The notes under the pieces are model-generated. The model made no database searches. It saw only the letters and a program-made list of their open reading frames with translations, and was not told the DNA's origin. A program made the translations under genes and the position numbers. A stretch of 64,000 bases of DNA. Source: a virus. Lineage: Duplodnaviria > Heunggongvirae > Uroviricota > Caudoviricetes. The DNA is taken from positions 169,278 through 233,277 of the IMG/VR virus record IMGVR_UViG_3300042905_002309; one strand, written 5' to 3'. Below, in pieces: positions 2,618 through 61,994 of the stretch (its first letter is position 1; the number at the start of each line of letters is the position of its first letter).

Positions 2618-2618
2618 T

Positions 2619-13171: not shown

Positions 13172-13254
13172 GGCTACGTGGTGGAATTGGCATACACAAG
13201 GGACTTAAAATCCCTCGCTTCGGCATAAGGGTTCGACTCCCTTCGTAGCCACCA
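13172..13254 (+). tRNA. tRNA-Leu (anticodon UAA), long variable arm, CCA encoded
   Basis: Acceptor GGCTACG/CGTAGCC, anticodon stem AGGGA/TCCCT with loop CTTAAAA, variable hairpin, T-arm AAGGG-TTCGACT-CCCTT, A73, CCA. Confidence 0.8.
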
Positions 13255-34112: not shown

Positions 34113-34808
34113 ATGTACATTTACAAGACAACTAACAAATTAAATGGTAAAATTTATATCGGACTTTCAAAGTTTGCGCCACAAGAAAATCCAGAGTATT
34201 TAGGTTCTGGTTATATCTTAAAGAAAGCTATTGAATGTTATGGTGCAGAGAATTTTGTAAAAGTTATTTTAGAAGAATGTTCTACACAGGAACAGCTATT
34301 AGAACGAGAAAGATACTGGATAGCCACATTAAAAGCTAATGACCGCAATGTGGGTTATAATATTTGTGAGGGTGGAACATGGGGTGACAATTGGACTAAT
34401 CATCCTAATAAAGAAGAATGGCGCAAAAAACTTAGTGAATCTAATCGTGGCAAGAAGAATGGTAATTATGGTAATCGATGGACTGATGAACAGAAAAGAA
34501 AAGCATCAGAAAGAGTAAAATTAAATCCTATAGGAATTGATCCTAAAACTGGTGAACACTATACAAAGAATCCTGAAACTAGAAAAAAATTATCAGATAC
34601 GAAATTAGGTTTAAATAATCCACACTCAAATTTATGGAAATTAGTATCGCCCATAGGTGAAATTTTTATAATAGAAGGTGGAATCAAAAAGAAAATTAAA
34701 GAATGTGGTTCAGACTATCAACAATTTAAACACGCTTTAATATTACCTGACGGTGGACGAAGAAATCTTAAAGGTTGGACACTATATAAATTAGAAAAAC
34801 CAATATAA
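34113..34808 (+). CDS. GIY-YIG homing endonuclease (Seg/I-TevI-like, NUMOD-like C-terminal repeats)
   Basis: YIYKTTNKLNGKIYIGLS ... NVGYNICEGG. Confidence 0.85.
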   Translation: MYIYKTTNKLNGKIYIGLSKFAPQENPEYLGSGYILKKAIECYGAENFVKVILEECSTQEQLLERERYWIATLKANDRNVGYNICEGGTWGDNWTNHPNKEEWRKKLSESNRGKKNGNYGNRWTDEQKRKASERVKLNPIGIDPKTGEHYTKNPETRKKLSDTKLGLNNPHSNLWKLVSPIGEIFIIEGGIKKKIKECGSDYQQFKHALILPDGGRRNLKGWTLYKLEKPI

Positions 34809-34847: not shown

Positions 34848-36038
34848 ATGAAAGAGATTAAAGGACAATTTAATACTGCGAAGGTGTTTGCATCAACAGT
34901 CGAACCTTCTTGTGAAGCACAAATTTTAGAGTTATGTAATGAAGAATGGGTATATAACTCTAAAATACGCATTATGGCAGACTGTCATTCTGGTAAGGGA
35001 TGTGTTATTGGTACTACTATGACAATTATTGATAAAATTGTTCCTAATTTAACCGGGGTTGATATCGGATGTGGGGTTCTTGTGACTAAATTTGATACGC
35101 TTTCTTTAACCTTGGAACAGGTTGACTCAATTGTTAAGCGTAACATCCCTATGGGTATGAATTCTCGTCAGTCTATGGTGGTTGACTTTACTCCTGAATT
35201 GGATAAGGCTATCTGTAAGGAAGCTTTTGATCCTCGTCAGGTTTGTAAGTCCATTGGTTCGTTGGGTGGTGGAAACCACTTTATCGAAATTGATAAGGAC
35301 GATGAGGGTAATTTTTATTTAGTCGTACATACGGGTTCTCGTAACTTTGGTAAGCGTGTTGCTGAACATTACCAGAACAAGGCTGTTGATTATCATTCCA
35401 AGAAGGGTTTGAAGTCTACTCAAGAAATCATTAACGAGTTGAAAGCCAAGGGGTTACAACACATGATTCCTGCTGAATTGAAGAAACGTAATGCCGTGGC
35501 TAACGAAGCTTTGACCTATTTGGAAGGTGACTTGTTTGATTGTTACTTAAACGATATGCATATTGCTCAGAAGATGGCAAGTGAGAACCGTAAGGCTATT
35601 GCAGATATCTTGTGCCGTACAATGCATATTAAGCCTACTGAACAATTTGAAACGATTCATAACTACATTGATGTTCATGCTATGATTTTGCGTAAAGGTG
35701 CTATCTCTGCGAAAGCGGGTGAAGTGTGCTTAATTCCTATCAATATGCGTGATGGTTCGTTAATCTGTGTTGGTAAGGGTAACGAAGATTATAACTATTC
35801 TGCGCCTCATGGTGCAGGTCGTTTAATGTCTCGTAAACAGGCGAAGCGTGAATTGTCTTTGGAAGGGTTCAAGGATACGATGAAGGATATTTATTCATCT
35901 ACGGTGGGTGCGTCTACGTTGGACGAAGCACCTGATGCTTACAAGCCTATTGCTGAAATCTTGGAGAACATTCAGGATACGGTTACGGTGTTGAAGCAGA
36001 TCAAGCCTATTTACAATGTGAAAGCGGAAGAGGAATAA
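34848..36038 (+). CDS. rtcB: RtcB RNA 3'-phosphate/2',3'-cyclic-phosphate ligase
   Basis: MADCHSGKGCVIG...GVDIGCG...GGGNHFIEID...HGAGR align with E. coli RtcB MPDVHLGKG...GVDIGCG...GNHFIEI...HGAGR. Confidence 0.95.
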   Translation: MKEIKGQFNTAKVFASTVEPSCEAQILELCNEEWVYNSKIRIMADCHSGKGCVIGTTMTIIDKIVPNLTGVDIGCGVLVTKFDTLSLTLEQVDSIVKRNIPMGMNSRQSMVVDFTPELDKAICKEAFDPRQVCKSIGSLGGGNHFIEIDKDDEGNFYLVVHTGSRNFGKRVAEHYQNKAVDYHSKKGLKSTQEIINELKAKGLQHMIPAELKKRNAVANEALTYLEGDLFDCYLNDMHIAQKMASENRKAIADILCRTMHIKPTEQFETIHNYIDVHAMILRKGAISAKAGEVCLIPINMRDGSLICVGKGNEDYNYSAPHGAGRLMSRKQAKRELSLEGFKDTMKDIYSSTVGASTLDEAPDAYKPIAEILENIQDTVTVLKQIKPIYNVKAEEE

Positions 36039-36394: not shown

Positions 36395-36973
36395 ATGGAC
36401 ATTCGCAAAGTTAGTAAAATATTGTGTTTAAGTTTACGACATAAACCAGAACTTTTGAAATTGAATATGGATTCCGAAGGTTGGGTTGATGTCAATGAAT
36501 TAATCCGCAGATACAATAATTACTATAAGCCTGACACTTACCTTAATAGGAATTTTCTTGATAAGGTGGTTGAAGAGAACAATAAGAAGCGTTTCGCCTA
36601 TAGTGATGATGGTACAAAGATTCGTGCCTCTCAGGGACATTCGATTAATATTAATTTGAATCTTCCTGAGAGTGTTCCAGAAGATATTTTATATCATGGA
36701 ACAGCTAAACGTTTTCTTAATGGTATCATGAAAGAAGGTTTGAAGAAAATGGAGCGTCAACACGTTCATTTATCTGACAATCTTAAAACAGCTTATTCAG
36801 TAGGTTCACGACATGGAGAACCTATTATTCTTATGGTACATGCGGGTGTAATGCATAAGAATGGGTTTAAGTTTTACAAATCCGAGAATGGGGTATGGTT
36901 GACTGATAATGTTCCGAAACAATATCTTGACTTTGCACCAATAATTGCGTATACTACTGGCTACGGTAAATAA
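36395..36973 (+). CDS. kptA: RNA 2'-phosphotransferase Tpt1/KptA
   Basis: SKILCLSLRHKPE...GWVDV...KRFAYSDDGTKIRASQGHS...YHGTAKRFL...HVHLS matches KptA along its whole length. Confidence 0.95.
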   Translation: MDIRKVSKILCLSLRHKPELLKLNMDSEGWVDVNELIRRYNNYYKPDTYLNRNFLDKVVEENNKKRFAYSDDGTKIRASQGHSININLNLPESVPEDILYHGTAKRFLNGIMKEGLKKMERQHVHLSDNLKTAYSVGSRHGEPIILMVHAGVMHKNGFKFYKSENGVWLTDNVPKQYLDFAPIIAYTTGYGK

Positions 36974-41093: not shown

Positions 41094-41582
41094 ATGAAAG
41101 AAATTAGATACGAAACTAATATACATACATTAAAATTTGATGTACCTAGTATTTTTCTAGCGGGTGTGACTGTTAGAGGAAATCAAACCCACTTGACTTC
41201 ATGGCGTTTTGAAGCTATTGAATTATTCAAGTCTAAAGGATTTGATGGCAATTTAATCATTCCTGAATTTATTGATAAGACTGAATCTGATAAGTATCGC
41301 TATGATTTACCAGTGTGGGAAAATTGTGGACTTTCGAATTCACATGTGATAATGTTTTGGATACCACGAACAAGAGAATTAATTGGACTTACGACTAATT
41401 TTGAAATGGGTTATTGGATGGCTCGACATCGTAGAAAACTTGTCTACGGTAGACCTGATGATTCATTTCGACATAATTATAATGATATCATGTGGGTGGA
41501 AGATGCTCAACGAGTTGGTGCGTCATGTCCAATTTATAACACTTTGGAGAAGACGGTTGATGCCTCTTTAAAACATTTATGA
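41094..41582 (+). CDS. nucleoside 2-deoxyribosyltransferase-like protein, paralog A
   Basis: IFLAG...GFDG...VIMFWIPR...GLTTNFEMGY...YGRPD; paralogous to 57396-57881. Confidence 0.5.
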   Translation: MKEIRYETNIHTLKFDVPSIFLAGVTVRGNQTHLTSWRFEAIELFKSKGFDGNLIIPEFIDKTESDKYRYDLPVWENCGLSNSHVIMFWIPRTRELIGLTTNFEMGYWMARHRRKLVYGRPDDSFRHNYNDIMWVEDAQRVGASCPIYNTLEKTVDASLKHL

Positions 41583-42270: not shown

Positions 42271-42666
42271 ATGAAAATTAACAAAGTAAATATGATTAAT
42301 GTAAGTGAATGGGATAAGCTCGTAAAGGATACTTATAAGCGACCATATTGCTTCCAACAACAAGATGGGTGTAAAGATCGAGGAACTTTTCCTATAACTG
42401 TACCAGAGTTTGCAGATGATTATGAAAATGATACTGTTCCAGAAGAGGTCAATCACGAAGAAATGGGTGTAAGTTTTAAGGCATGGCTTAATCGTGACCC
42501 CAAATCACCATTGAAAGACGAAGAAGAGGGTAGTGACACAGAACAATGGGAGATTGATATGTGGTGGGATCGCAACTTCTATCCTAATATTCAAATGATT
42601 GCAAACGATTTACAGGAACGTGGTCTATTAGATGCTGGTGATTATGTGATAAATATTGATTGGTGA
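42271..42666 (+). CDS. acidic hypothetical protein
   Basis: ORF track. Confidence 0.5.
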   Translation: MKINKVNMINVSEWDKLVKDTYKRPYCFQQQDGCKDRGTFPITVPEFADDYENDTVPEEVNHEEMGVSFKAWLNRDPKSPLKDEEEGSDTEQWEIDMWWDRNFYPNIQMIANDLQERGLLDAGDYVINIDW

Positions 42667-42670
42667 AATT

Positions 42671-42952
42671 ATGAAATGTATACAAACTTACGCAAAATGT
42701 CGTTTGAATAAGGGTACTTGTGGTTATAGTTGCAGATATTTGTTAGTAGAGAAACCTATTACAAAAGTTGCCAAAAAGAAGAAGGTATTTCCTAATGCAA
42801 ATCTTACCCGTATACCTAAATGGTTTAATTATATGTTTGAATGCACGTTGGAACAATGCCCAACTGCAAGAACATTTCCAGAACTTTTGGCCTATAGAGC
42901 GTATCTATTAGGTAAGGCTACTGAAAAATATCCTGCGGATTATACGAAATAA
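42671..42952 (+). CDS. Cys-containing hypothetical protein
   Basis: ORF track; ATG 42671. Confidence 0.45.
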   Translation: MKCIQTYAKCRLNKGTCGYSCRYLLVEKPITKVAKKKKVFPNANLTRIPKWFNYMFECTLEQCPTARTFPELLAYRAYLLGKATEKYPADYTK

Positions 42953-43270
42953 GTTGACTTTGAAATTAGAATAGCATAGAGTATTACTTTCAGAACGAGG
43001 TAGGATTAGAAGTGTCCATCCTTTAAAGAGTGAGTCGAATAAAAGGAATAGTTACATATTCATAAATGGGTGATCCCGTTTAACACGTTCCAAAAGCGTT
43101 AATATGTCCAACATAAATAGACTATTAGATATATGAAGAAGTCTTGGTTGACGGTGTATGAGAAGGTTGGATTAAATCTACAGCACAACGAAAGTAACGG
43201 TAGGCCAAGCTTTAGACTCTTTGGTGTAATAACACAATTCTGAAATTCATTGATAAAATAGAAAGGAAAT

Positions 43271-43513
43271 ATGTTTAAATTTAATAAAAAGTTAATTACG
43301 GTAGATGAAATTCAAAAAGAGGTTGACACTTATGAATGTTGGTCGGTGGAATGGATATCACATACTGGCGATTATTATGCATACAGGAGAAACTGTAAAG
43401 AGTTTTTTACCAAAGAAGATGATGCTAATATATTTCACAAGAATATTGTTGACGCAGGTAAACTTCTTAGATACAACGCATTAACGGTATATCCTGTTAA
43501 AAAAGAAAATTAA
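43271..43513 (+). CDS. hypothetical protein
   Basis: ORF track; RBS gaaaggaaat. Confidence 0.45.
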   Translation: MFKFNKKLITVDEIQKEVDTYECWSVEWISHTGDYYAYRRNCKEFFTKEDDANIFHKNIVDAGKLLRYNALTVYPVKKEN

Positions 43514-43516
43514 AAT

Positions 43517-43551
43517 ATTAGTTGACTTTGTAACGAAAATAGTAAACAATT
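43517..43551 (+). repeat. promoter-like repeat GTTGACTTTGTAACGAAAATAGTAAA(C/T)AATTGA, copy 1 (copy 2 at 43777-43811; related AGTTGACTTTGAAATTAG at 42951)
   Basis: ~30-bp near-identical direct repeat preceding consecutive genes. Confidence 0.5.
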
Positions 43552-43556
43552 GATTT

Positions 43557-43778
43557 ATGAAACGTGGTAAAAAATCCTGTACTAATAAGAAAAAATGGGC
43601 AGACACCCTTCCAGACCCACAATTTTGCATAAGGTGTAAGAAAAGTGCTGATGGTTATATCTTAAAAGATAGTATTTTGGATAGTTATACCACAGAAGGT
43701 TCACAACCACCCGCAAAATTGGGCATATGTAAACAATGTAAACAATCGTCTGGAACAAGAATATATTGGTATAAATAG
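43557..43778 (+). CDS. zinc-ribbon small protein (CIRCKKS...CKQCKQS)
   Basis: ORF track. Confidence 0.45.
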   Translation: MKRGKKSCTNKKKWADTLPDPQFCIRCKKSADGYILKDSILDSYTTEGSQPPAKLGICKQCKQSSGTRIYWYK

Positions 43779-43880
43779 TTGTTGACTTTGTAACGAAAAT
43801 AGTAAATAATTGAAACATTGCGATAGATAATAGTTATAAGCAATGTTTAACTGAAATAATAAGATCGAAAGGAAAATATT

Positions 43881-44789
43881 ATGAAGAAAGTAGAGAAACC
43901 TACCGAGGATATCGGAATTGTGATAGGGCGTTTTCAGGTGCATGAACTCCATTCTGCACATTTAGATTTAATTCAAAGTGTTTGCAATGAACATGAGAAA
44001 GTTATTATCTTTCTTGGATTAAGTCCTTTAATGGTTACATCAAATAACCCTTTAGACTTTGAATCCCGTAAACAAATGATTTTAGAGAGTTTTCCAAAAG
44101 TTATTGTAATGTATATTAAAGATAATCCATCTGATGAAGTTTGGTCTAAAGATTTAGATGAAAAAATCCGAGATTTAGCAAGTCCTACGCAATCCGTTGT
44201 CCTATACGGAAGTAGAGATTCTTTCATTACACATTATTCTGGTAAGTATCGTACACAAGAATTGATGCAGGAAACTTATATTTCTGGTTCTGAAATTCGT
44301 AAGAATATTTCAAAGAAGGTTAAATCTTCTGCGGATTTCCGAGCAGGGGTGATTTGGGCTTCTGGAAATCGTTTTCCTACCTGTTTTCCTTGTGTTGATA
44401 TCGCTATCTTCAATGAAGATTATAGTAAGATTCTATTAGCTAGGAAGGCTAAAGAAACACTCTACCGCTTTGTAGGAGGCTTCGCAGACCCTAAATCAGA
44501 CTGTTACGAGACTGATGCCCGTAGAGAGGTTCAAGAGGAAACTGGACTCGAAATTGGGGATTTGAAATATCTTGGTAGTACTATTATCAACGATTTTCGT
44601 TACAGACGAGAAATAGATAAAGTCAAAACACTATTTTTTGTTGGAAAAATCTTATTTGGTCGTCCAGAAGCGAATGATGATATCTGTGAAGTCAAATTCT
44701 TTGATATTGACAAGCTAACGGCTACTGATATGATTCCTGAACATAAGCCATTATTTGATATGTTACAAAAATATTTGAAGAAATCTTAA
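43881..44789 (+). CDS. natV: bifunctional NMN adenylyltransferase / Nudix hydrolase (NadM-Nudix, NatV-like)
   Basis: IGRFQVHELHSAH (GRFQPFHxGH-type) N-domain; Nudix box GGFADPKSDCYETDARREVQEETGLE. Confidence 0.85.
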   Translation: MKKVEKPTEDIGIVIGRFQVHELHSAHLDLIQSVCNEHEKVIIFLGLSPLMVTSNNPLDFESRKQMILESFPKVIVMYIKDNPSDEVWSKDLDEKIRDLASPTQSVVLYGSRDSFITHYSGKYRTQELMQETYISGSEIRKNISKKVKSSADFRAGVIWASGNRFPTCFPCVDIAIFNEDYSKILLARKAKETLYRFVGGFADPKSDCYETDARREVQEETGLEIGDLKYLGSTIINDFRYRREIDKVKTLFFVGKILFGRPEANDDICEVKFFDIDKLTATDMIPEHKPLFDMLQKYLKKS

Positions 44790-45035
44790 AATGAACGACT
44801 TATTTGAAAAAGAGCCAATATGCTTTGAAAGTCCTGAAAAGAATGTATGGAAATATATTTTCCACTTTAAAGTGGCTATAGCGGAAGCAGTATTATACCG
44901 TTATAACTCTTTTGAAGATAGGACAGTTCTTTGCGTTTCGGTTTCTAGTGGCTGTAGCGTTGGATTTTTTAGAGGGTTGTAAGTTATATTTGAAACGAAG
45001 AGAAGAATTGAAAAAAGCATTGAAAGGATAAAATT

Positions 45036-46415
45036 ATGGAAAACAACATTATTACATTGACTGATAGTTATAAATTTACGCATTTTCAACAGTATCCCAA
45101 AGGTACGGAATACATTTACTCATACTTTGAGTCTCGTAATGGAGCCAAGTACAACAAGACTGTGTTTTTCGGTTTGCAATATTACCTTAAAGCATACTTG
45201 CAGGGTACGGTAGTTACTCGTAAGGGTATCGAAAGTGCCGCAAAACTTTGTAAGGCTCACTTTGGTACTGAAAAGAATTTTAATCGTGAGATGTGGGAAT
45301 ACATACTTGAGAAGTATGATGGGAAGCTACCTATCAGCATCAAGGCAGTACCAGAAGGTACTCCTGTATCAGTTTCAAACGTTCTTATGACGGTTGTTAA
45401 TACTGATCCTAAGTGTGCGCCTTTGACGAATCATTTGGAAACATTATTGTCTCAGATTTGGGGAGCTTCGACTGTCGCAAGTCTTTCCTATGAGACATAT
45501 AAATTGATTGAATTTTATCGTGATCGCACAGGAACACGTAATGGAATTAAGTTTGGTTTACATGATTTTGGATTCAGGGGTGTTAGCTCTGTAGAATCTG
45601 CTGGTGTGCTTGGTGCAGGACATTTGCTAAATTTTCTTGGTACTGATACCGTAAAGGCTATGGAAGTGGCAATGGAATACTACAATGCACCACTAGACGG
45701 ATTGGCATATTCAGTCCCGGCTACTGAACATTCGGTCATGACAGCTAGGGGTAAAGAAGGCGAAGAACAAGTTTTTGCTGAATTACTTGGTACATATCCA
45801 GAAGGTATCTTGAGTGTGGTTATCGATTCTTACGACTATAAGAACTTTGTAAATGTAATTGTTCGTAAGTATAAGGATGTGATTCTTGCTCGTAATGGTA
45901 AGCTTGTTTTACGCCCAGATTCGGGCGATCCCACATCTGTAACAATTGATGTGTTTAATATGGTTGCGGATATCTTTGGAACAACTAAAAATGACAAAGG
46001 TTATAAGGAATTACACCCAAAACTTGGTGTTCTATGGGGTGACGGTATTGATTATGCGGGTATCCGTAGCATCTTATTCAGTTTGAGTAATAATATGTAC
46101 TCTACTGATAGTCAAGTTTTTGGTCAAGGTGGAGGCTTACTACAAAAGATCGACAGGGATTTTCAGCGTTTTGCATTTAAATCTTCTGCACAATGCCGTG
46201 AGGGTGTATGGTACGATATCTTTAAAAATCCTTTGGAAGTTAGTAAGGTTTCCAAGAAAGGTAAGTTGAAACTCATTAAAGATGAAAAGGGTGATTTTCA
46301 TACTGTTGGATTAAGTGATCCTCGTCCTGACGAATTAGTTGAAGTGTTTCGTGATGGTGAAATCCTTAAAGAATATACCTTTGACGAAGTTCGTAAGAAT
46401 GTTGGAACTTGGTGA
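45036..46415 (+). CDS. nadV: nicotinamide phosphoribosyltransferase (NadV/NAMPT)
   Basis: TDSYKFTHFQQYP...YSYFESR...FFGLQYYLK matches NAMPT (DSYKVTHYKQYP...YSYFECR...FYGLQYIL). Confidence 0.95.
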   Translation: MENNIITLTDSYKFTHFQQYPKGTEYIYSYFESRNGAKYNKTVFFGLQYYLKAYLQGTVVTRKGIESAAKLCKAHFGTEKNFNREMWEYILEKYDGKLPISIKAVPEGTPVSVSNVLMTVVNTDPKCAPLTNHLETLLSQIWGASTVASLSYETYKLIEFYRDRTGTRNGIKFGLHDFGFRGVSSVESAGVLGAGHLLNFLGTDTVKAMEVAMEYYNAPLDGLAYSVPATEHSVMTARGKEGEEQVFAELLGTYPEGILSVVIDSYDYKNFVNVIVRKYKDVILARNGKLVLRPDSGDPTSVTIDVFNMVADIFGTTKNDKGYKELHPKLGVLWGDGIDYAGIRSILFSLSNNMYSTDSQVFGQGGGLLQKIDRDFQRFAFKSSAQCREGVWYDIFKNPLEVSKVSKKGKLKLIKDEKGDFHTVGLSDPRPDELVEVFRDGEILKEYTFDEVRKNVGTW

Positions 46416-46524
46416 TGAAAAAGGACAATATTCTTAACTACATCAGAAAGCATAAAAAGGTTAAGGGAGTCAACAAGAAAACTGTTGACTTCTATACCGA
46501 ATATAAACCGAATAAGAAGGGTTA
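46414..46524 (+). CDS. tiny basic ORF (36 aa)
   Basis: Read by eye; overlaps nadV stop. Confidence 0.25.
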
Positions 46525-46527
46525 ATT

Positions 46528-46950
46528 ATGGCAAATATTCGACAAAGTATTTTAGTTAGAACAGATTTAAACCTTCCTAAAGGATTATCAGAAGCACAAG
46601 TGGCACACATTCATTTTGAGATGTTTAGAAAATTGTTATTAAATGATATTACTAAATCACAGTTAGATAATGATTTTAGTGTTAAAGTTACGATAGATAA
46701 GTCAATTTTAGAATGGTTAGATAGTCCGTATATTTTTGTACACGGTGTACCAAATATGGAAGTCTTGCGTCATTTTATTACACAAGCTAATACACTTAAA
46801 GTTCCTTATACTGAATGGCGAGATACTATCTATGTAAAAGTATCTGAAACACAAAAGATTGTGGTTGAAGATTGCTTAGTAGGTGTGGCCTTTTTGGGTG
46901 ATAGTGACAAGATTCGTGCTATAATTGGTGACTTGCCGTTATTGGGGTAA
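46528..46950 (+). CDS. hypothetical protein
   Basis: ORF track. Confidence 0.5.
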   Translation: MANIRQSILVRTDLNLPKGLSEAQVAHIHFEMFRKLLLNDITKSQLDNDFSVKVTIDKSILEWLDSPYIFVHGVPNMEVLRHFITQANTLKVPYTEWRDTIYVKVSETQKIVVEDCLVGVAFLGDSDKIRAIIGDLPLLG

Positions 46951-46954
46951 TATT

Positions 46955-47179
46955 ATGAATATAACCGAAGATATGCAATTTTGTAAACGTGAGCCGTATA
47001 AGATATCATTTTTTGATAGAATTAAATGTATCTTTGGTAAACATGATTGGGGATATTGGGGTACATTTAATGATGAATTTAATTTAGACGATATTACAAA
47101 TGAAAGAACGTGTATGGTTTGTCGTAAACATCAAACCGAAGTTGATTTAAACCTTTCTATCTGGAAAACTGTGAAATAA
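46955..47179 (+). CDS. Cys-containing small protein
   Basis: ORF track; ATG 46955. Confidence 0.45.
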   Translation: MNITEDMQFCKREPYKISFFDRIKCIFGKHDWGYWGTFNDEFNLDDITNERTCMVCRKHQTEVDLNLSIWKTVK

Positions 47180-47180
47180 C

Positions 47181-47534
47181 ATGGATTTACGTATGCCATC
47201 ACCGACATCTAGCCCATTTGGTAAGCTAATTGAAAAGCCTTTAGCACAAATGGGATACAGACCTTACAACGGTTCAAATAATCTTTTTGCAAAGACTGTT
47301 GGATATACTTTGTTAGTGGTCGATACAAATGACTTGACGCTAACACAGTTCTTTAGTAAGGTAGATGGGAAAGGTGCAATATATAAGACACATACCATAA
47401 GTGAGGAATGTAATATATTGGATCGTATTAAAGATATTGAAAGTTTTGGATGTAAGTATGATTTTTGTTGGAGCAAGGATTTGAAAGATTTCAGTTTTCT
47501 ATCAATTTCAGAACAGTTAGGATTTATTTTATGA
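47181..47534 (+). CDS. hypothetical protein
   Basis: ORF track. Confidence 0.5.
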   Translation: MDLRMPSPTSSPFGKLIEKPLAQMGYRPYNGSNNLFAKTVGYTLLVVDTNDLTLTQFFSKVDGKGAIYKTHTISEECNILDRIKDIESFGCKYDFCWSKDLKDFSFLSISEQLGFIL

Positions 47535-48555: not shown

Positions 48556-48833
48556 AAACTTGGGAAACACGTTTGAAAGAAGCGGTTCAAAATAAACGCT
48601 TTACCAAAGAAGATGTCAAAGAAGCGCAATTGTGGACTACTGATCCTATCTCCGAAATTAAAGATAAGATAGAACTTAAAAACAATGACATTAAATTTGG
48701 CCCGAAAGATATCTACCTAATCTTAGATGGAATCTTCTTTACCAAAGGTGTCGAAGAGAATGATGTAGCGTTAGCAGAGGCTTGTTACAAGGGAATTCAT
48801 AAAAGAGTTGAAAAACTTTACAAAACAGTTTGA
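48552..48833 (+). CDS. hypothetical protein
   Basis: ORF track. Confidence 0.45.
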   Translation: MKTWETRLKEAVQNKRFTKEDVKEAQLWTTDPISEIKDKIELKNNDIKFGPKDIYLILDGIFFTKGVEENDVALAEACYKGIHKRVEKLYKTV

Positions 48834-48865
48834 CATTTAATAACGAAAAGGGTAATCTATTACAC

Positions 48866-49927
48866 ATGAAAGTATACAACACAGACAAACTACGAATTTG
48901 CAAAAGCGAAGATTATAACTACGTTTTTGACAAGACAAACGGATTCTTCGCTCGTTGGGGTAAAACGAAAGAAGACGATCCTCAGTTCGCACCGATGCCT
49001 GAAATCCTTGATATCGAAGTGACTACCATTTGTTATGGTGTGCCACATATTGATAAAGAGGGTAAACCTACTCCCCGTATCCCTTGTAAATTCTGTTACA
49101 AGTCAAATACATCGAATGGTGTCAATATGCCTTTCTCCAATTTCAAGATCATCCTTGATAAGATGCCTTGGTTGCTTCAAGTAGCCTTTGGTGCTGATTC
49201 AGAGTGTTCTTCAAATCCTGATATCTGGAAAATGATGGGTTACTGCCGTGAGAAGGGTGTCGTGCCTAATATCACTGTAGCTAATATTACTGACGAAACT
49301 GCTGACAATTTGAAGAAATATTGTGGGGCTGTTGCTGTCTCTCGTTATGATAATAAAAACCTCTGCTATGATTCTGTCAAGAAATTAACGGATCGTGGTA
49401 TGGAACAGATTAATATTCACATTTTGGTGTCTGATAACACCTATGATATGGTTATGGAAACTCTTAAAGACCGATTGACCGACAAGCGACTTGAAAAGCT
49501 TAATGCCATCGTACTCTTGAACTTGAAACAAAAAGGTCGTGGTGAGGCGTATAACACCCTTACTGATGATAAATTCAAGGTGCTTGTAGACTTTGCGTTT
49601 GATAATAAGATTACTATTGGGTTTGATTCATGTGGTTGCAACAAGTTTCTACGTGTAATCAAGGATTATCCTAATTTTAAAGAAATGGAAATGGTGTCGG
49701 AACCTTGTGAGTCAAGTTTATTCAGTTCGTACATTGATGCTAACGGAGATTTCTATCCTTGTAGCTTCTGTGAGGGACATTGCAAAGGTTGCTTGTCTTG
49801 GGAAACTGGTTTAAGCGTGTTGAAGGCTGATGATTTCCTCAAGGATATCTGGCATAATGAGAAGACAAAAATTTTTAGGGACGTACTTTTGAAAAATGGT
49901 CGTAATTGCCCTATGTATAATGTGTAA
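48866..49927 (+). CDS. radical SAM / SPASM-domain enzyme (atypical Cx17Cx2C cluster; C-terminal Cx12Gx4C...CxxC...C SPASM-like cluster)
   Basis: EVTTICYGVPHIDKEGKPTPRIPCKFCY; FGADSECS (GGEP-like); EPCESSLFSSYIDANGDFYPCSFCEGHCKGC fits the SPASM Cx9-15Gx4C...CxxC pattern. Confidence 0.55.
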   Translation: MKVYNTDKLRICKSEDYNYVFDKTNGFFARWGKTKEDDPQFAPMPEILDIEVTTICYGVPHIDKEGKPTPRIPCKFCYKSNTSNGVNMPFSNFKIILDKMPWLLQVAFGADSECSSNPDIWKMMGYCREKGVVPNITVANITDETADNLKKYCGAVAVSRYDNKNLCYDSVKKLTDRGMEQINIHILVSDNTYDMVMETLKDRLTDKRLEKLNAIVLLNLKQKGRGEAYNTLTDDKFKVLVDFAFDNKITIGFDSCGCNKFLRVIKDYPNFKEMEMVSEPCESSLFSSYIDANGDFYPCSFCEGHCKGCLSWETGLSVLKADDFLKDIWHNEKTKIFRDVLLKNGRNCPMYNV

Positions 49928-52484: not shown

Positions 52485-53029
52485 ATAAAGTTGATGTAAA
52501 AAATTATATCGATCCATCTTGGGATGTTTCTGATATTGTAGTGGAAGCATCTCAAGAGTTGGTTGATAAATGGTTGCCTATGATGAATTATAGTTCTGAT
52601 TCGTGGAGAAACTTTCATTTTACTGAACAAGATATTACATCACATAGAGATGAAACCAAATATTATGGTAACAAATATAAATTACCATCTGTAGATTTAA
52701 AAGATAGATTAGAAGTTTCAAAAAATCTAGAATTTTTGGAGTTGGTATATAAAGCTAATTATAAAGAATGTGGATTCACCTATAAAGTCCGATGGGCAGT
52801 GATGAATTATAGGGGAGATTGTACTAAACGACTACATACTGATGCAGAAGCGTATAAATTGAATGTTAAAGAAACCATAGACTTAATTAATTATAATAAA
52901 AATTCGATCAACATAATATCTTCTGATATAGAGTACAAACAACGTGAATTGTTGCACACACAAGACGCATTAAAAAGATTTGAAGAAGCGTTAATTAGAT
53001 TAAAAGAACAAGAAAAGGATTATGAATGA
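52481..53029 (+). CDS. hypothetical protein
   Basis: ORF track. Confidence 0.5.
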   Translation: MNKVDVKNYIDPSWDVSDIVVEASQELVDKWLPMMNYSSDSWRNFHFTEQDITSHRDETKYYGNKYKLPSVDLKDRLEVSKNLEFLELVYKANYKECGFTYKVRWAVMNYRGDCTKRLHTDAEAYKLNVKETIDLINYNKNSINIISSDIEYKQRELLHTQDALKRFEEALIRLKEQEKDYE

Positions 53030-53562
53030 GTAAAACAATTGTAGTAAATTTATTTGCAGGTCCGGGAACTGGTAAATCAACCACTATGGCAGGTGTGTTC
53101 AGTGAGTTGAAATTGCGTGGCATTAACTGTGAAATGGCTCCTGAATTTGCCAAGGAAAAGGTTTGGGAAGGCTCATTAGGCATCCTTGAGAACCAGATTT
53201 ATATCTTTGGTAAGCAGTTACACGCTATTCATCGACTATTGGGAAAGGTTGATGTGATTATTACAGATTCACCCTTGCTATTATCATTGGTTTATGGTAA
53301 ACATGAAACTGAAACTTTTAAGAAGTTTGTATTAGAGGTGTTTCATAGACAGAATAATGTCAACTATTTCTTGGAACGTAAAAAGGCTTACAATCCTTCT
53401 GGGCGATTACAGACAGAGGAACAAGCGAAGGGTATTGATCGTACTGTATATGATCTTTTAATGGCAAATGATGTACCATTCTTTAAGATTCCAAGTTGTA
53501 AAGATTCTTTTAGTGTGATTGCTAACGATGTAGAAGAAATGATGAAGGTTCGACATGGATAA
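53026..53562 (+). CDS. P-loop NTPase/kinase (AAA_28/NadR-kinase-like?)
   Basis: Walker A FAGPGTGKSTT; small size; sits near the NAD and nucleotide-metabolism genes. Confidence 0.5.
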   Translation: MSKTIVVNLFAGPGTGKSTTMAGVFSELKLRGINCEMAPEFAKEKVWEGSLGILENQIYIFGKQLHAIHRLLGKVDVIITDSPLLLSLVYGKHETETFKKFVLEVFHRQNNVNYFLERKKAYNPSGRLQTEEQAKGIDRTVYDLLMANDVPFFKIPSCKDSFSVIANDVEEMMKVRHG

Positions 53563-54166
53563 TGATATAAATGTTATGAAAATCAAGCTTTTACACCCTG
53601 ACGCAAAATGTCCAGTACAGGCGCATCCAAATTCAGACGCAGGTTATGATGTGTTTGCTATCGATGATGGTGTAGAAAAAATAGAGATTAGAAGGGAATA
53701 TATAGCTGATAATCCAGTCGCCAACGTAAGAGAAATTTTCATATACAGAGAGTATCGTACTGGATTGGCTATAGAATTACCTATTGGTTATCATTGTGAA
53801 TTATTTCCACGTTCATCTATTACTAAAATGGATTTAATGTTGAAAAATTCCATTGGATTAATTGATAATGAATATCGTGGTGAATTGATATTCAGGTTTC
53901 ACCAGTTTCCAATGGTAAATGGTACAAATTCTGTTTACAAAAAGGGTGATAGGATTGGTCAAATTGTCTTGAGAAAGACTATCCATATGCCTATAATGGT
54001 TGTCGATGAATTAAGCGATACGAGTCGTGGTACAGGTGGATTTGGTAGTAGTACAGGTGAATTCCATATCGTGGCAGGTGCTACAAACGTGGGTAAAAGT
54101 TGTTTTAAAAGTGAAGAAGTGAATCCGATTTATAAATCAATTGGTGTAGATACAAGGATGATATAA
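53555..54166 (+). CDS. dut: dUTP diphosphatase (dUTPase) with ~40-aa C-terminal extension
   Basis: AGYDVFA, RSSITK...GLIDNEYRGEL, GDRIGQIVL, RGTGGFGSSTG motifs. Confidence 0.85.
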   Translation: MDNDINVMKIKLLHPDAKCPVQAHPNSDAGYDVFAIDDGVEKIEIRREYIADNPVANVREIFIYREYRTGLAIELPIGYHCELFPRSSITKMDLMLKNSIGLIDNEYRGELIFRFHQFPMVNGTNSVYKKGDRIGQIVLRKTIHMPIMVVDELSDTSRGTGGFGSSTGEFHIVAGATNVGKSCFKSEEVNPIYKSIGVDTRMI

Positions 54167-54168
54167 TT

Positions 54169-54687
54169 ATGAAATACAAAAGTGAATTATTAGGTGCAAC
54201 AGTTTATCCTGAATTAGATGTAATATTCTTCTACGGGGGAATCTTCTCACAATGGGCAGAATGTAAGTTCCATTGTACAGCATTAAACCTTGAAGTGAAT
54301 TGTGCTGAACAAGCGATGATGCTTCATAAGGCAAAATTCTTTAAAGATCAGGAAATCTATGATGCCATTCTTGCAACAGATCATCCTAGAGATCAAAAGG
54401 CTTTAGGTCGTATGGTTAAGAATTTTGATCCTATGGCATGGGAAACGGTTGCATTTAATTATGTCAAAGATATCAATGTTGATAAATTTGGTCAAAATAA
54501 GGGATGGAAAGAATTGTTATTCTTGACTGATCCTTACCATTTGGTCGAAGCTTCTCCTACAGATAGAATTTGGGGTATTGGTATGGGTGAAGATAATCCA
54601 GATATTTTGAATGATACGAAATGGGGTAGAAACCTATTAGGTGAAGCTATTGTACAGGCTAGAGTAGAATTGATGTTTCCATCCTAA
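54169..54687 (+). CDS. NADAR (YbiA-like, DUF1768) domain protein
   Basis: FFYGGIFSQWAECKF...CAEQAMMLHKAKFF...LATDHPRDQKALGRMVKNFDPMAW...EASPTDRIWGIGMG. Confidence 0.8.
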   Translation: MKYKSELLGATVYPELDVIFFYGGIFSQWAECKFHCTALNLEVNCAEQAMMLHKAKFFKDQEIYDAILATDHPRDQKALGRMVKNFDPMAWETVAFNYVKDINVDKFGQNKGWKELLFLTDPYHLVEASPTDRIWGIGMGEDNPDILNDTKWGRNLLGEAIVQARVELMFPS

Positions 54688-56970: not shown

Positions 56971-57408
56971 ATGAACACACCAGAATACAAAATTTTAGCA
57001 GGATTATCCGTAGATGAGGTACAAAGGCTTGTAAATCAAGCTATTCAGGAAATTGGCAAAGAAGTAACTTTATTAGGGGGTATGGTAGCAGAAATATATC
57101 AAGGATTTCCACCTACGTACTATCAGACCGTTTTAATCACTAATAAATTTAGCGAAGCACTATTAATGGAAAATTTTGGCATAGGAATTGATTATAAACG
57201 AGAATTGCAACTTTTACACGAAGATAAAGAAAAGTCTACACCTTCTGCAAGTGATCCCTACCCTCTTGAAGTTTTAACCGAACCTATTAAAGAAGGTGTC
57301 ATTACTACTATTATACCAGATCATCTTAAAAAATCGAAGAAAAAGAAAGATGTTCCAAAGGTAATACACGAATCTAATCAACGAACACCTAATTCTTGGG
57401 ATTTATAA
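56971..57408 (+). CDS. hypothetical protein
   Basis: ORF track; divergent from 56892. Confidence 0.5.
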   Translation: MNTPEYKILAGLSVDEVQRLVNQAIQEIGKEVTLLGGMVAEIYQGFPPTYYQTVLITNKFSEALLMENFGIGIDYKRELQLLHEDKEKSTPSASDPYPLEVLTEPIKEGVITTIIPDHLKKSKKKKDVPKVIHESNQRTPNSWDL

Positions 57409-57881
57409 TGAAAATATTTACACCAGATAATAAACCTGCACAAGGTCGTGGTAAAATTGACCCCTATATGAAGGCTATTTTCCTAGCAGGGCCAACTCCA
57501 CGAAGTAATGACGTAAAAGGATGGCGACCAGAAGCTTTAGAAATACTAGAATCTTTTGGATTCGATGGTATAGTGTATGTACCAGAACGTGCAGATTGGG
57601 CTGTTAAATTTAATTATGACGATCAAATTACTTGGGAACTTAATGGCTTAGATTATTGTAATGTTATTATGTTTTGGATTCCTAGAAATATGGAAACTTT
57701 ACCCGGATTGACAACTAATGTCGAATTTGGTATGAATATTAAAAATAATAGTGTAATATACGGAAGACCGGATGGTGCTATTCACACGAAGTATCTTGAT
57801 ACAATTTATCAGTTATATACACAAAGAAATCCTTGTAAAACCCTACAAGAAACTGTAGAATGTACTTTACAAATTTTATGA
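57396..57881 (+). CDS. nucleoside 2-deoxyribosyltransferase-like protein, paralog B
   Basis: IFLAGP...GFDG...VIMFWIPR...GLTTNVEFGM...YGRPD. Confidence 0.5.
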   Translation: MGFIMKIFTPDNKPAQGRGKIDPYMKAIFLAGPTPRSNDVKGWRPEALEILESFGFDGIVYVPERADWAVKFNYDDQITWELNGLDYCNVIMFWIPRNMETLPGLTTNVEFGMNIKNNSVIYGRPDGAIHTKYLDTIYQLYTQRNPCKTLQETVECTLQIL

Positions 57882-58351
57882 GTACTATTAAACATCTCAC
57901 CTACAAACACATTCATACCACCATTTTAGAGATGGTAGAAATGTTGAAGAAAGCGGAATACACCCCACAGGTTATTATGCCTGTTGCTAAAGGTGGTTTA
58001 ATTCCTGCTGGTTTGCTCGGACAATATTATCCAGATGCTTTATTCTACATAATTCAAACAAAAGGCTATTTAGGTGTTGACAAAAAGCACGATTCTGTTA
58101 AGGTGTTTATACCTAAATCGATAAAGCGTGATATTGACAAGAATGCTAAAATATTGATTGTGGATGATATTTACGATACAGGTAGGACGATCACAGAGAT
58201 TATTAAAGTGTTGAAAGAAAATGGTGTTAAGAATAATATTGCTACCGCAACGTTATATCATAAACAAGAGGCTGATGGTACGCCTGATTTCTTTTGTAGG
58301 ACTGTTAAGAAGGGTACGTGGATAAATTTTCCTTGGGAGTTAAAAATATGA
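57878..58351 (+). CDS. purine phosphoribosyltransferase (type I PRTase, XGPRT/HPRT-like)
   Basis: AKILIVDDIYDTGRTI PRPP-binding motif. Confidence 0.75.
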   Translation: MSTIKHLTYKHIHTTILEMVEMLKKAEYTPQVIMPVAKGGLIPAGLLGQYYPDALFYIIQTKGYLGVDKKHDSVKVFIPKSIKRDIDKNAKILIVDDIYDTGRTITEIIKVLKENGVKNNIATATLYHKQEADGTPDFFCRTVKKGTWINFPWELKI

Positions 58352-61896: not shown

Positions 61897-61994
61897 TCCA
61901 CTTGTTTCAAAGAAGATTCCAGCCTTCTTTGATTACTGCTATAACTATTTATTGACTTGTATAACAAAATCCACTATTATTGCTAAATATTGAT

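What the first reader, a model, noticed from the sequence alone, without database searches (positions are those of the whole stretch)
43881..46415. NadV + NadM-Nudix (NatV) two-step NAD+ salvage pathway
Clear NAMPT and bifunctional NMNAT-Nudix genes lie adjacent. This pair is the pathway known from vibriophage KVP40. It has recently been described as an NAD-reconstitution route that lets phages survive NAD+-depleting defences such as Thoeris, DSR and Sir2-type systems.
Basis: partly seen in the sequence, partly recalled or inferred. Interest (0 to 1): 0.65.

Follow-up and report, generated by a model that had tools for sequence, protein, structure and literature searches.

The report
Phage NAD+ salvage gene pair
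A large T4-like phage carries two intact genes that should rebuild the coenzyme NAD+ from nicotinamide; this pathway is already known from other big phages and from bacteria, so the find is real but ordinary.

Summary
ORF 43881-44789 (+, 302 aa) has a NadM-type NMN adenylyltransferase domain fused to a Nudix domain. ORF 45036-46415 (+, 459 aa) is a full-length nicotinamide phosphoribosyltransferase (NadV/Nampt) with every catalytic residue I checked.

The interpretation, a KVP40-type two-step salvage now called NARP2, is supported, with four qualifications.
- The NadM-Nudix protein belongs to a divergent short subfamily. It is about 21-23% identical to canonical phage NadM-Nudix proteins, has HSAH instead of HxGH after a 2-residue insertion, and has a linker about 37 residues shorter. 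It scores far below NCBIfam equivalog cut-offs. A family profile still matches NadM-Nudix crystal structures (E 2e-28) and KVP40 NatV (hhalign 98.9%) across both domains.
- This subfamily sits directly upstream of NAMPT in 72 of 80 viral loci and 77 of 80 bacterial loci. One of these is an NrtR-regulated operon in a Mucilaginibacter chromosome. The pair is therefore a conserved operon, probably of Bacteroidota type.
- The 246-bp spacer holds a 63-codon remnant of an RlmN/Cfr-like radical-SAM gene, so the close spacing here followed a deletion.
- The NAMPT is Nampt-type, not the NARP1 Namat type.

The anti-defence role is inferred by homology only. This is a new member of a known kind.

The parts
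43881..44789 (+). Gene for a short-type NadM-Nudix protein (302 aa), predicted to be a bifunctional NMN adenylyltransferase and ADP-ribose/NAD(H) pyrophosphatase
   Evidence: ORF. The AF2 model (pLDDT 83) best matches the NadM-Nudix structures 2qjt, 2r5w and 2qjo (E 1e-16). The family profile matches 2qjt at 2e-28 and 2qjo at 1e-23, both domains aligned. hhalign against KVP40 NatV gives 98.9% probability. Compared with a relative of 81% identity, pN is 0.13 and pS 0.81.
43881..44366 (+). N-terminal NMN adenylyltransferase domain (aa 1-162). Motifs: G16-R-F-Q19, then V-H-E-L, then H24-S-A-H27; D81...W88; I134-S-G-S-E-I-R140
   Evidence: Motif positions. Alignment to 2qjt, 2qjo and 1f9a. Family conservation: R17 and W88 invariant; H27 in 111 of 120; R140 in 115 of 120; [HT]x[GA]H in 95 of 120.
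44382..44786 (+). C-terminal Nudix hydrolase domain (aa 168-302). Nudix box is G200-x6-D207-x7-R215-E-V-Q-E219-E220-T-G-L, with an invariant H288 in the C-terminal helix
   Evidence: Pfam NUDIX at 171-293, E 5e-13. E216, E219 and E220 are conserved in 116-119 of 120 family representatives. The domain aligns to the Nudix domains of 2qjt and 2qjo, and to the NrtR-like 2fml and 3gz8.
44791..44982 (+). 63-codon ORF in the spacer, a 5' remnant of an RlmN/Cfr-like radical-SAM gene. It is not part of the NAD pathway
   Evidence: Residues 1-58 are 78% identical to the start of the full radical-SAM gene directly downstream of nadM in L095. They are 67% identical to L043:11324-12214 and 53% to L059:10769-11725. 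The match ends at SGCSVG, just before the CxxxCxxC motif, and no other piece of that gene is in the window. The relatives match Pfam Radical_SAM and NCBIfam RlmN/Cfr models, below cut-off.
45036..46415 (+). Gene for nicotinamide phosphoribosyltransferase (NadV/Nampt, 459 aa)
   Evidence: Family and structure matches. Motifs located: Y12, F178, R181, D204, H232, R293, D295, G335-D336, G365-G367, K371, R374. These correspond to human Y18, F193, R196, D219, H247, R311, D313, G353-D354, G383-G385, K389 and R392, by the alignment and human numbering from my own knowledge. 38% identical to KVP40 NadV.
43868..43873 (+). Shine-Dalgarno AAAGGA, 7 nt upstream of the nadM-Nudix ATG
   Evidence: Read directly from the sequence.
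45023..45028 (+). Shine-Dalgarno AAAGGA, 7 nt upstream of the nadV ATG
   Evidence: Read directly from the sequence.
43782..43810 (+). Sigma-70-like promoter match (TTGACT-17-AATAAT), about 70 nt upstream of nadM-Nudix. Weak evidence only
   Evidence: From. The number of such sites in the region (20) is not above the shuffled expectation (16 +/- 4).

Best explanation
The two genes encode a working nicotinamide salvage route.

NadV (Nampt type) condenses nicotinamide with host-made PRPP to give NMN. The N-terminal domain of the short-type NadM-Nudix protein then adenylylates NMN with ATP to give NAD+. The C-terminal Nudix domain most likely splits ADP-ribose (and possibly NAD(H)) into AMP and ribose-5-phosphate. 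That removes ADP-ribose and returns ribose-5-phosphate for PRPP synthesis.

The pair has the gene order and protein subfamilies of the NrtR-regulated nadM-nadV operon of Bacteroidota. It was probably captured as a unit by a lineage of large phages. In this roughly 250-kb T4-like phage it should keep NAD+ high during infection. That includes infection of cells whose defence systems cleave NAD+ to ADP-ribose and nicotinamide, which is the NARP2 strategy.

Shown here: gene integrity, homology of both domains, catalytic motifs, operon conservation, and Nampt rather than Namat features. Inferred: the enzyme activities, the Nudix substrate, and the counter-defence benefit.
For: NAMPT:
- Above the curated NCBIfam cut-off (539 against 405).
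- E 1e-113 to 2e-116 to human NAMPT over its full length.
- All checked active-site motifs present.
- Nampt-like GGGLLQK at the positions where Namat has Phe392 and Tyr396 (PMC12774641).
- Bit scores fall in the order human NAMPT 383-392, Xanthomonas Nampt 333, SPbetaL1 Namat 9W5X 257.
- No Prs/Adps-like gene in the window.

NadM-Nudix:
- Foldseek top hits are the three NadM-Nudix crystal structures.
- The family profile matches 2qjt at 2e-28 and 2qjo at 1e-23 over both domains, and archaeal NMNATs at 1e-10 to 1e-8.
- hhalign against the characterised KVP40 NatV gives 98.9% probability.
- GRFQ, H..H, D81/W88, ISGSEIR and REVQEETGL are all conserved.
- pN 0.13 against pS 0.81.

Coupling:
- NAMPT lies in the same locus in 72 of 80 IMG/VR loci, and in 71 of those 72 it is downstream of nadM-Nudix on the same strand.
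- The same holds in 77 of 80 bacterial genome loci.
- A Mucilaginibacter chromosome has the order NrtR, NadM-Nudix, NadV.

Literature:
- KVP40 Nampt plus Nmnat make NAD+ and overcome type I Thoeris and other NAD+-depleting systems (10.1101/2024.02.11.579819).
Against: - No enzyme of this short NadM-Nudix subfamily has, to my knowledge, been assayed.
- The ATP-binding signature is HSAH with a 2-residue insertion rather than HxGH.
- The protein scores only 45 bits against NadM-Nudix equivalog models whose cut-offs are 350-450 bits. Pfam's cytidylyltransferase model is not matched at E 0.01.
- No host or defence system is known for this metagenomic phage.
- The rest of the genome (about 186 kb) was not examined for other NAD genes.
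- No promoter or terminator signal stands out above chance.
Confidence: 0.78

Rival explanations
1. The same chemistry operates, but the selective benefit is general metabolic support rather than counter-defence. The phage would be supplying NAD+ for its own replication and for NAD+-consuming phage enzymes, such as the Tpt1 RNA 2'-phosphotransferase encoded 7 kb upstream. This is an auxiliary metabolic gene reading.
For: The same operon is a housekeeping, NrtR-regulated salvage unit in Bacteroidota chromosomes. NARP2 raises NAD+ even without a defence system. The window encodes an NAD+-using Tpt1/KptA (Pfam E 2.5e-48) and a NADAR protein (E 3e-42).
Against: The KVP40 pair was shown experimentally to overcome NAD+-depleting defences. 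The two benefits are not mutually exclusive. Stoichiometric NAD+ use by Tpt1 should be small relative to the cellular pool (inference).
Confidence: 0.25
2. The adenylyltransferase domain of this short subfamily is inactive or acts on another substrate, because of HxAH and the 2-residue insertion. Only NMN synthesis and Nudix hydrolysis would be phage-encoded, and the host NMNAT would finish the job.
For: The motif deviates from the canonical (H/T)xGH. Some family members have clearly degenerate motifs such as HxEH, HxGQ or NxVM. Curated NadM-Nudix thresholds are not met.
Against: Ala at this position is the second commonest state in the family (39 of 120), and both His residues are kept. HxAH members retain NAMPT in 39 of 40 loci. 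R17, D81, W88 and R140 are invariant or nearly so. HxAH is functional in ATP sulfurylase of the same superfamily (my own knowledge). The domain is under strong purifying selection. The same subfamily sits in NrtR-controlled operons.
Confidence: 0.07
3. The NAMPT-family protein is a Namat (NARP1 type). It would ligate nicotinamide to ADPR-pyrophosphate to form NAD+ directly.
For: Namat and Nampt are homologous, about 36% identical, and share the catalytic core (PMC12774641). KVP40 Nampt shows weak activity on ADPR-PP.
Against: There is no Adps/Prs-like gene beside it or anywhere in the window. The clamp positions are Gly367 and Lys371, as in Nampt, not the Phe and Tyr/Phe seen in SPbetaL1 and Staphylococcus phage PM34 Namat. 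The protein is closer to human and Xanthomonas Nampt than to the Namat structure 9W5X. Its partner is an NMNAT.
Confidence: 0.03

Closest known systems
Vibrio phage KVP40 NadV + NatV (NARP2; Osterman et al. 2024, bioRxiv 10.1101/2024.02.11.579819, and the earlier KVP40 study it cites)
   Same: The two enzyme families and the predicted chemistry are the same: nicotinamide plus PRPP gives NMN, and NMN plus ATP gives NAD+, with a Nudix domain fused to the NMNAT. Both phages are large and T4-like. The window NadV is 38% identical to KVP40 NadV over its full length. NatV aligns over both domains to the family profile.
   Different: The NadM-Nudix here is a different subfamily. A single-sequence BLASTP against the NatV of KVP40's congener ValKK3 finds only the first 88 residues. 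The window protein is 302 aa against 341 aa for NatV, has HSAH after a 2-residue insertion, and lacks about 37 linker residues. KVP40's natV (94.5 kb) and nadV (138.2 kb) are 43 kb apart. Here the genes are 246 bp apart and in operon order.
Bacterial NadM-Nudix + NadV salvage operons under NrtR. Structures: Francisella tularensis 2qjt/2r5w and Synechocystis 2qjo
   Same: Same two-domain architecture, with both domains aligning. Same gene order, nadM-Nudix followed by nadV. The identical short subfamily is found in Mucilaginibacter, Chitinophaga, Marivirga and Fulvivirga chromosomes at 41-45% identity, followed directly by NAMPT. In Mucilaginibacter sp. McL0603 the pair is preceded by NrtR.
   Different: The phage copy has no NrtR regulator nearby. 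It sits among phage early-type genes. It is 18-21% identical to the crystallised proteins.
NARP1 (Adps + Namat)
   Same: The NAMPT-family catalytic core is shared, and the end product is NAD+.
   Different: There is no Adps here. The adenine-clamp residues are Nampt-like. The partner is an NMNAT-Nudix protein.
NARP3 (PnuC + NadR; PMC13464706)
   Same: It is a phage route that rebuilds NAD+ through an NMN adenylyltransferase of the same HIGH-motif superfamily.
   Different: NARP3 starts from imported nicotinamide riboside and uses a NadR kinase fusion. No PnuC or NadR was seen in the window. The only candidate is a small AAA_28 P-loop kinase at 53026-53562, and it is ambiguous.

Membership tests
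NadV / Nampt (nicotinamide phosphoribosyltransferase) | NAMPT_N plus type II PRTase (NAPRTase) domain architecture, scoring above a curated family cut-off | tested here: met
   Pfam NAMPT_N 6e-39 and NAPRTase 4e-36. NCBIfam NF006629 scores 539 bits against a cut-off of 405.
NadV / Nampt (nicotinamide phosphoribosyltransferase) | Active-site residues: Tyr18, Phe193, Arg196, Asp219 (nicotinamide specificity), His247 (autophosphorylation), Arg311, Asp313, Gly353-Asp354, Gly383-Gly384, Arg392 (human numbering, from my own knowledge) | tested here: met
   Y12, F178, R181, D204, H232, R293, D295, G335-D336, G365-G366 and R374 all lie in the aligned motifs.
NadV / Nampt (nicotinamide phosphoribosyltransferase) | Nampt rather than Namat: no aromatic adenine clamp (Namat has Phe392 and Tyr396), and no adjacent Adps | tested here: met
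   The window has GGGLLQK, against GSFSYQF in a Namat that lies next to a Prs-like gene. The mutants F392G and Y396K in PMC12774641 point to Gly and Lys as the Nampt states. No Adps is present in the window.
NadV / Nampt (nicotinamide phosphoribosyltransferase) | Catalyses nicotinamide plus PRPP to NMN | not testable with these tools
   Needs an enzyme assay.
NadM-Nudix bifunctional NMNAT / ADP-ribose pyrophosphatase (NatV) | Two-domain architecture: N-terminal NadM-type nucleotidyltransferase and C-terminal Nudix | tested here: met
   Foldseek top six hits are 2qjt, 2r5w and 2qjo. The profile matches both domains of 2qjt and 2qjo. hhalign against KVP40 NatV covers residues 3-338.
NadM-Nudix bifunctional NMNAT / ADP-ribose pyrophosphatase (NatV) | (H/T)xGH ATP-binding signature directly after GRFQP-F | tested here: inconclusive
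   The window has GRFQ-VHEL-HSAH. Both His residues are kept, Gly is replaced by Ala, and there is a 2-residue insertion. The insertion is present in nearly every family member in which the motif could be located (96 of 97). Ala occurs in 39 of 120 representatives, and these still pair with NAMPT in 39 of 40 loci.
NadM-Nudix bifunctional NMNAT / ADP-ribose pyrophosphatase (NatV) | Second nucleotidyltransferase motif, ISxTxxR | tested here: met
   I134-S-G-S-E-I-R140. R140 is conserved in 115 of 120. It aligns to ISAT..R of canonical phage NadM proteins.
NadM-Nudix bifunctional NMNAT / ADP-ribose pyrophosphatase (NatV) | Nudix box GX5EX7REUXEEXGU with the catalytic glutamates | tested here: met
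   R215-E-V-Q-E-E-T-G-L is intact. The upstream part is Gx6D, one residue longer. E216, E219 and E220 are conserved in 116-119 of 120.
NadM-Nudix bifunctional NMNAT / ADP-ribose pyrophosphatase (NatV) | Reaches the curated equivalog score of the NCBIfam NadM-Nudix models, or the Pfam CTP_transf_like model | tested here: not met
   The best score is 44.8 bits against a cut-off of 409. No Pfam nucleotidyltransferase hit appears at E 0.01. I therefore file it as a distinct short subfamily of the NadM-Nudix superfamily, not as an equivalog.
NadM-Nudix bifunctional NMNAT / ADP-ribose pyrophosphatase (NatV) | Genomic coupling with nadV | tested here: met
   72 of 80 viral loci and 77 of 80 bacterial loci. 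One bacterial locus has NrtR upstream.
NARP2 (phage NAD+ reconstitution pathway 2) | A Nampt-clade gene and an Nmnat gene in the same phage genome, without Adps | tested here: met
   Both genes are present. The phage context is shown by rIIB and by RNA ligase, DenV and related genes. No Adps is in the 64-kb window. The rest of the genome was not seen.
NARP2 (phage NAD+ reconstitution pathway 2) | Restores NAD+ and rescues phage from NAD+-depleting defence | not testable with these tools
   Needs infection assays.

The most novel reading that the evidence does not exclude
The short NadM-Nudix subfamily is shared by Bacteroidota NrtR operons and by well over a thousand metagenomic sequence clusters, many on large-phage contigs, yet it is nearly absent from cultured phages. 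It may be biochemically distinct from the characterised NadM/NatV enzymes. Its remodelled ATP loop (GRFQ-xx-L-HxAH), truncated linker and lengthened Nudix loop could give a different substrate range or a different coupling between NAD+ synthesis and ADP-ribose hydrolysis. Its recurrent neighbourhood with RlmN/Cfr-like radical-SAM genes could point to an additional, unknown linked function.
Probability: 0.1. Interest if true: 0.45.

Novelty: new member of a known kind. Interest (0 to 1): 0.25.

Why it matters
This adds one more large environmental phage to the list that carry their own NAD+ salvage, which is now understood as a broad counter-measure to NAD+-depleting immunity.

The modestly useful points are three.
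- The NMNAT partner belongs to a short subfamily that is abundant in metagenomes and, to my knowledge, has not been characterised biochemically.
- The phage pair mirrors a Bacteroidota nrtR-nadM-nadV operon. This hints at the host phylum and at capture of the operon as a unit.
- The gene order is plastic, with radical-SAM genes inserted and lost between the two genes.

None of this changes the current understanding of the pathway.

Tried and rejected
- Megablast of the locus against 50,697 phage records found nothing. The phage has no close cultured relative.
- A single-protein scan of IMG/VR found nothing. An alignment query was needed.
- Rfam at E <= 1 over 42500-47500 found nothing, and at gathering threshold over the whole window found only tRNAs. 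No riboswitch or RNA element is associated with the pair.
- The promoter and terminator scan gave counts no higher than shuffled sequence.
- The spacer does not fold better than shuffles (z +0.95).
- Two blind fetches of KVP40 blocks missed nadV and natV. The genes were found later by similarity search.
- I first took the gene downstream of nadM in L095 for NAMPT. BLAST showed it is not. It is the intact radical-SAM gene of which orf63 is the remnant.
- The Namat (NARP1) reading was rejected on the clamp residues, similarity ranking, partner gene and absence of Adps.
- dN/dS on orf63 could not tell a decaying remnant from a constrained gene. pN is 0.14 and pS 0.86, the same as for the neighbouring gene.
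Full report
**Observation**

The window has two + strand ORFs exactly at the reported coordinates. One is 43881-44789 (302 aa) and the other is 45036-46415 (459 aa). Each is preceded by AAAGGA 7 nt upstream of its ATG. They are separated by 246 bp, and that spacer contains a 63-codon ORF (44791-44982).

The window as a whole has about 36% GC, and nearly all its genes lie on the + strand. It carries an rIIB gene preceded by a large 727-aa ORF. It also carries RNA ligase, RtcB, Tpt1, DNA ligase, DenV, dUTPase and a CCA-adding enzyme. This is a T4-like early or auxiliary gene region. The same proteins occur on metagenomic contigs of up to 249,720 bp. No cultured phage is close at the DNA level.

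**The 459-aa protein is a bona fide NadV/Nampt**

- It matches Pfam NAMPT_N (6e-39) and NAPRTase (4e-36).
- It exceeds the curated NCBIfam cut-off (NF006629, 539 bits against 405).
- It matches PHROG 448 at 6e-149.
- It aligns with human NAMPT structures over its full length at E 1e-113 to 2e-116.

The motifs that hold the human active-site residues are all present:

| Motif in the window protein | Human residues |
|---|---|
| DSY12K | Y18 |
| HDF178GFR181G | F193, R196 |
| GTD204T | D219 |
| EH232S | H247 |
| R293PD295SG | R311, D313 |
| G335D336G | G353, D354 |
| G365GGLLQK371 | G383 to K389 |
| DR374D | R392 |

The human numbering is from my own knowledge.

**Nampt or Namat?**

Phages also carry a NAMPT homologue, Namat, which uses ADPR-pyrophosphate in NARP1. 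I tested that alternative in four ways.

- The Namat structure paper (PMC12774641) identifies Phe392 and Tyr396 as the adenine clamp. The authors mutated them to Gly and Lys, which I take to be the Nampt states.
- In the window these positions are Gly367 and Lys371. A Staphylococcus Kayvirus homologue has GSFSYQF at the same place. That homologue lies next to a Prs-like gene (PHROG 619, 9e-91).
- The window protein scores higher against human Nampt (383-392 bits) and Xanthomonas Nampt (333 bits) than against SPbetaL1 Namat 9W5X (257 bits).
- No Prs/Adps-like sequence exists in the window.

It is 38% identical to the characterised KVP40 NadV (E 1e-102).

**The 302-aa protein is a divergent NadM-Nudix**

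The Nudix half is clear (Pfam 5e-13, residues 171-293). The N-terminal half gives only weak single-sequence matches:
- NCBIfam NadM-Nudix equivalogs: at most 44.8 bits against cut-offs of 350-450.
- PDB 2qjt: 3e-6.
- ValKK3 NatV (a close relative of KVP40): only 88 residues align, at 30% identity.

The family itself is large. There are 3,227 hits in the 90%-clustered database. Among 50%-identity representatives, 1,246 reach E <= 1e-30.

Evidence at the family level is much stronger.
- An AlphaFold2 model built from 43 homologues (mean pLDDT 83) has the NadM-Nudix crystal structures 2qjt, 2r5w and 2qjo as its six best Foldseek hits (E 1e-16 to 1e-14).
- A profile of 120 representatives matches 2qjt at 2e-28 and 2qjo at 1e-23, with both domains aligned. 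It also matches archaeal NMNATs 1f9a (1e-10) and 1ej2 (3e-8).
- hhalign of that profile against KVP40 NatV gives 98.9% probability and E 1.4e-17 over 275 columns spanning both domains.

**Catalytic motifs of the NadM-Nudix protein**

The protein has G16RFQ19, then VHEL, then H24-S-A-H27. Canonical NadM has GRFQP-F-HxGH. The window protein therefore has a 2-residue insertion and Gly replaced by Ala.

- The insertion is present in nearly every family member in which the motif could be located (96 of 97).
- At the Gly position the family has G in 61, A in 39 and S in 4 of 120 representatives. The last His is kept in 111 of 120 and the first His or Thr in 115 of 120.
- R17 and W88 are invariant. 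D81, R140 (in ISGSEIR) and the Nudix residues E216, E219 and E220 are nearly so.
- D81 and W88 align with the Asp and Trp conserved in canonical phage NadM proteins.
- Among IMG/VR loci, HxAH members have NAMPT beside them in 39 of 40 cases.
- HxAH is the natural motif of ATP sulfurylase in the same superfamily (my own knowledge).

I therefore read HSAH as a subfamily variant, not as an inactivating change. This remains untested biochemically.

Two further differences from canonical proteins show up in the alignment.
- About 37 residues are missing from the linker between the domains.
- One extra residue sits in the Nudix loop (Gx6D in place of Gx5E).

Compared with a relative of 81% identity, pN is 0.13 against a saturated pS of 0.81. 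This indicates purifying selection.

**Coupling of the two genes**

In 80 IMG/VR loci that carry this subfamily, NAMPT lies within the fetched flank in 72. In 71 of those 72 it is downstream on the same strand, usually less than 160 bp away. Two of the eight exceptions are cut off by contig ends.

In 80 loci from bacterial genomes the same arrangement holds in 77. These include complete chromosomes of Mucilaginibacter and Mb-scale contigs of Chitinophaga, Marivirga and Fulvivirga. There the proteins are 41-45% (NadM-Nudix) and 44-48% (NAMPT) identical to the window's.

In Mucilaginibacter sp. McL0603 the order is NrtR (NUDIX plus NrtR winged-helix domain), then NadM-Nudix, then NadV, then a TonB-dependent receptor. 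NrtR is the known Nudix-related repressor of NAD metabolism (my own knowledge), so this is independent contextual evidence that the short subfamily works in NAD+ salvage.

The phage pair therefore looks like a captured Bacteroidota-type nadM-nadV operon without its regulator. This weakly suggests a host in Bacteroidota or a related phylum, which fits the low GC content.

In cultured phages the subfamily is rare. It matches 16 of 50,697 records, only five of them above 30% identity. Those five include four huge uncultured-phage genomes (462-642 kb) and Tunturiibacter phage Tunturi_5. A canonical NadM-Nudix query matched 456 records.

**The spacer**

orf63 starts 1 nt after the nadM-Nudix stop codon (TAAAATG). 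Its first 58 residues are:
- 78% identical to the start of the full-length gene in the same position in the closest distinct relative (L095);
- 67% identical to the start of L043:11324-12214 and 53% identical to L059:10769-11725, proteins of about 300 aa that lie just downstream of NAMPT in two other phages.

Those proteins carry the CxxxCxxC motif and match Pfam Radical_SAM. Their best NCBIfam matches are RlmN/Cfr RNA methyltransferases (1e-32, below cut-off).

In the window the similarity stops at SGCSVG, immediately before the cysteine motif. The ORF then ends (FFRGL*), and nothing else of that gene is present in the window. The same 63-codon ORF is called in several independent assemblies, so it is not an assembly artefact.

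I conclude that a deletion of roughly 0.8 kb removed a radical-SAM gene that once lay between the two NAD genes. Radical-SAM genes of two types lie beside the NAD pair in 8 of 80 viral loci and between the two genes in L096. The junction is thus a hot spot for insertion and loss. I could not determine whether orf63 is still expressed.

**Mechanism**

Steps supported by homology and context:
1. NadV makes NMN from nicotinamide and PRPP. The PRPP must come from the host, because no Prs gene is in the window.
2. The NadM domain makes NAD+ from NMN and ATP.

Steps inferred from the characterised relatives:
3. The Nudix domain hydrolyses ADP-ribose, and perhaps NAD(H), to AMP and ribose-5-phosphate. 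The basis is the set of characterised relatives: KVP40 NatV (whose Nudix activities I recall from the earlier KVP40 study, not read here), Francisella and Synechocystis NadM-Nudix (PDB titles), and the nearest Nudix sequences, which are NrtR-like or ADPRase-like.
4. The two products of defensive NADases (TIR, SIR2, SEFIR), ADP-ribose and nicotinamide, would then both be recycled.

The counter-defence benefit is an inference from the KVP40 experiments. A general metabolic benefit is equally compatible, and the two are not exclusive.

**Comparison and novelty**

This is the NadV plus NadM-Nudix module long known in large phages. Iyer et al. 2022 (PMC9503650) report NadV in 22-33% of medium-sized and jumbo phages, and NadV in every phage that has NadM. 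The module is called NARP2 since 2024.

The particulars here do not change the concept: a short Bacteroidota-type NadM-Nudix subfamily, operon order, a radical-SAM remnant, and a neighbourhood rich in RNA-repair, NADAR and Tpt1 genes. JGI pipelines already label the protein 'bifunctional NMN adenylyltransferase/nudix hydrolase'.

**Verdict**

This is a new member of a known kind, with interest about 0.25.

Noticed in passing
window 44791-44982 (+): The 63-codon ORF between the two NAD genes is the 5' remnant of an RlmN/Cfr-like radical-SAM gene. It is cut off just before the CxxxCxxC motif. Intact copies sit in the same place in L095, and downstream of NAMPT in L043 and L059.
   Followed up: yes
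L016, L032, L034, L043, L059, L064, L067, L069, L095, L096: RlmN/Cfr-like radical-SAM genes of two types recur beside or between the nadM-Nudix and nadV genes of large phages (8 of 80 IMG/VR loci). The reason for the association is unknown.
   Followed up: partly
L130 3216-7793 (Mucilaginibacter sp. McL0603 chromosome) and L127-L178: The same short NadM-Nudix subfamily forms a chromosomal nrtR, nadM-Nudix, nadV operon in cultured Bacteroidota. This points to a cellular origin of the phage pair and possibly to the host phylum.
   Followed up: yes
window 24177-25310, 28868-29329, 29332-30450, 34848-36038, 36395-36973, 46528-46950, 61980-63455: The window holds a dense RNA-repair and translation-rescue set: RNA ligase, a KTI12/AAA_33 kinase, an RlaP nucleotidyltransferase, RtcB, Tpt1/KptA (RNA 2'-phosphotransferase, which consumes NAD+), a PTH2-like peptidyl-tRNA hydrolase directly downstream of nadV, and a CCA-adding enzyme. 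It looks like an anti-anticodon-nuclease toolkit.
   Followed up: partly
window 53026-54687 (+): Three consecutive genes: an AAA_28 P-loop kinase (PHROG label 'thymidylate kinase'; AAA_28 is also the fold of the NadR kinase domain, by my own knowledge), a dUTPase/dCTP deaminase-like gene, and a NADAR domain protein (E 3e-42). Published work links NADAR to NadM/NadV neighbourhoods in phages (PMC9503650).
   Followed up: partly
window 57396-58351 (+) and 41094-41582 (+): A purine-type phosphoribosyltransferase (best match is xanthine/hypoxanthine PRT; it is not Prs) is preceded by a nucleoside 2-deoxyribosyltransferase-like protein. A second such protein lies 2.3 kb upstream of nadM-Nudix.
   Followed up: partly
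window 43813-43848 (+): A perfect 9-bp hairpin (AAACAUUGC ... GCAAUGUUU, 18-nt loop) sits in the leader between a promoter-like site and the nadM-Nudix ribosome-binding site. Its fold z-score is -2.6. Conservation was not checked.
   Followed up: partly
window 44707-44734 (+): The best sigma-70-like match of the region (TTGACA-16-TATGAT with an upstream TG, 11 of 12) lies inside the 3' end of nadM-Nudix. It could be the former promoter of the lost radical-SAM gene, and may now drive nadV.
   Followed up: no
L056, L057, L058 (IMG/VR): The only viral loci whose NadM-Nudix has HxEH instead of Hx[GA]H also lack NAMPT within 8 kb. This may be a sublineage that lost the salvage function.
   Followed up: no
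window 3120-3196, 8451-8511, 12549-12623, 13172-13254: Phage tRNA genes: Tyr-GTA (found by ARAGORN only), Lys-TTT and Leu-TAA (found by both tools), and one more tRNA-like hit found only by Rfam (39 bits, partial model).
   Followed up: no
window 48830-49927 (+): A second, unrelated radical-SAM/SPASM-like protein (365 aa; SPASM E 3e-4) has no NCBIfam match.
   Followed up: no
window 2595-3098 and 34113-34808: HNH and GIY-YIG/NUMOD3 homing-endonuclease-like genes are interspersed among the early genes.
   Followed up: no
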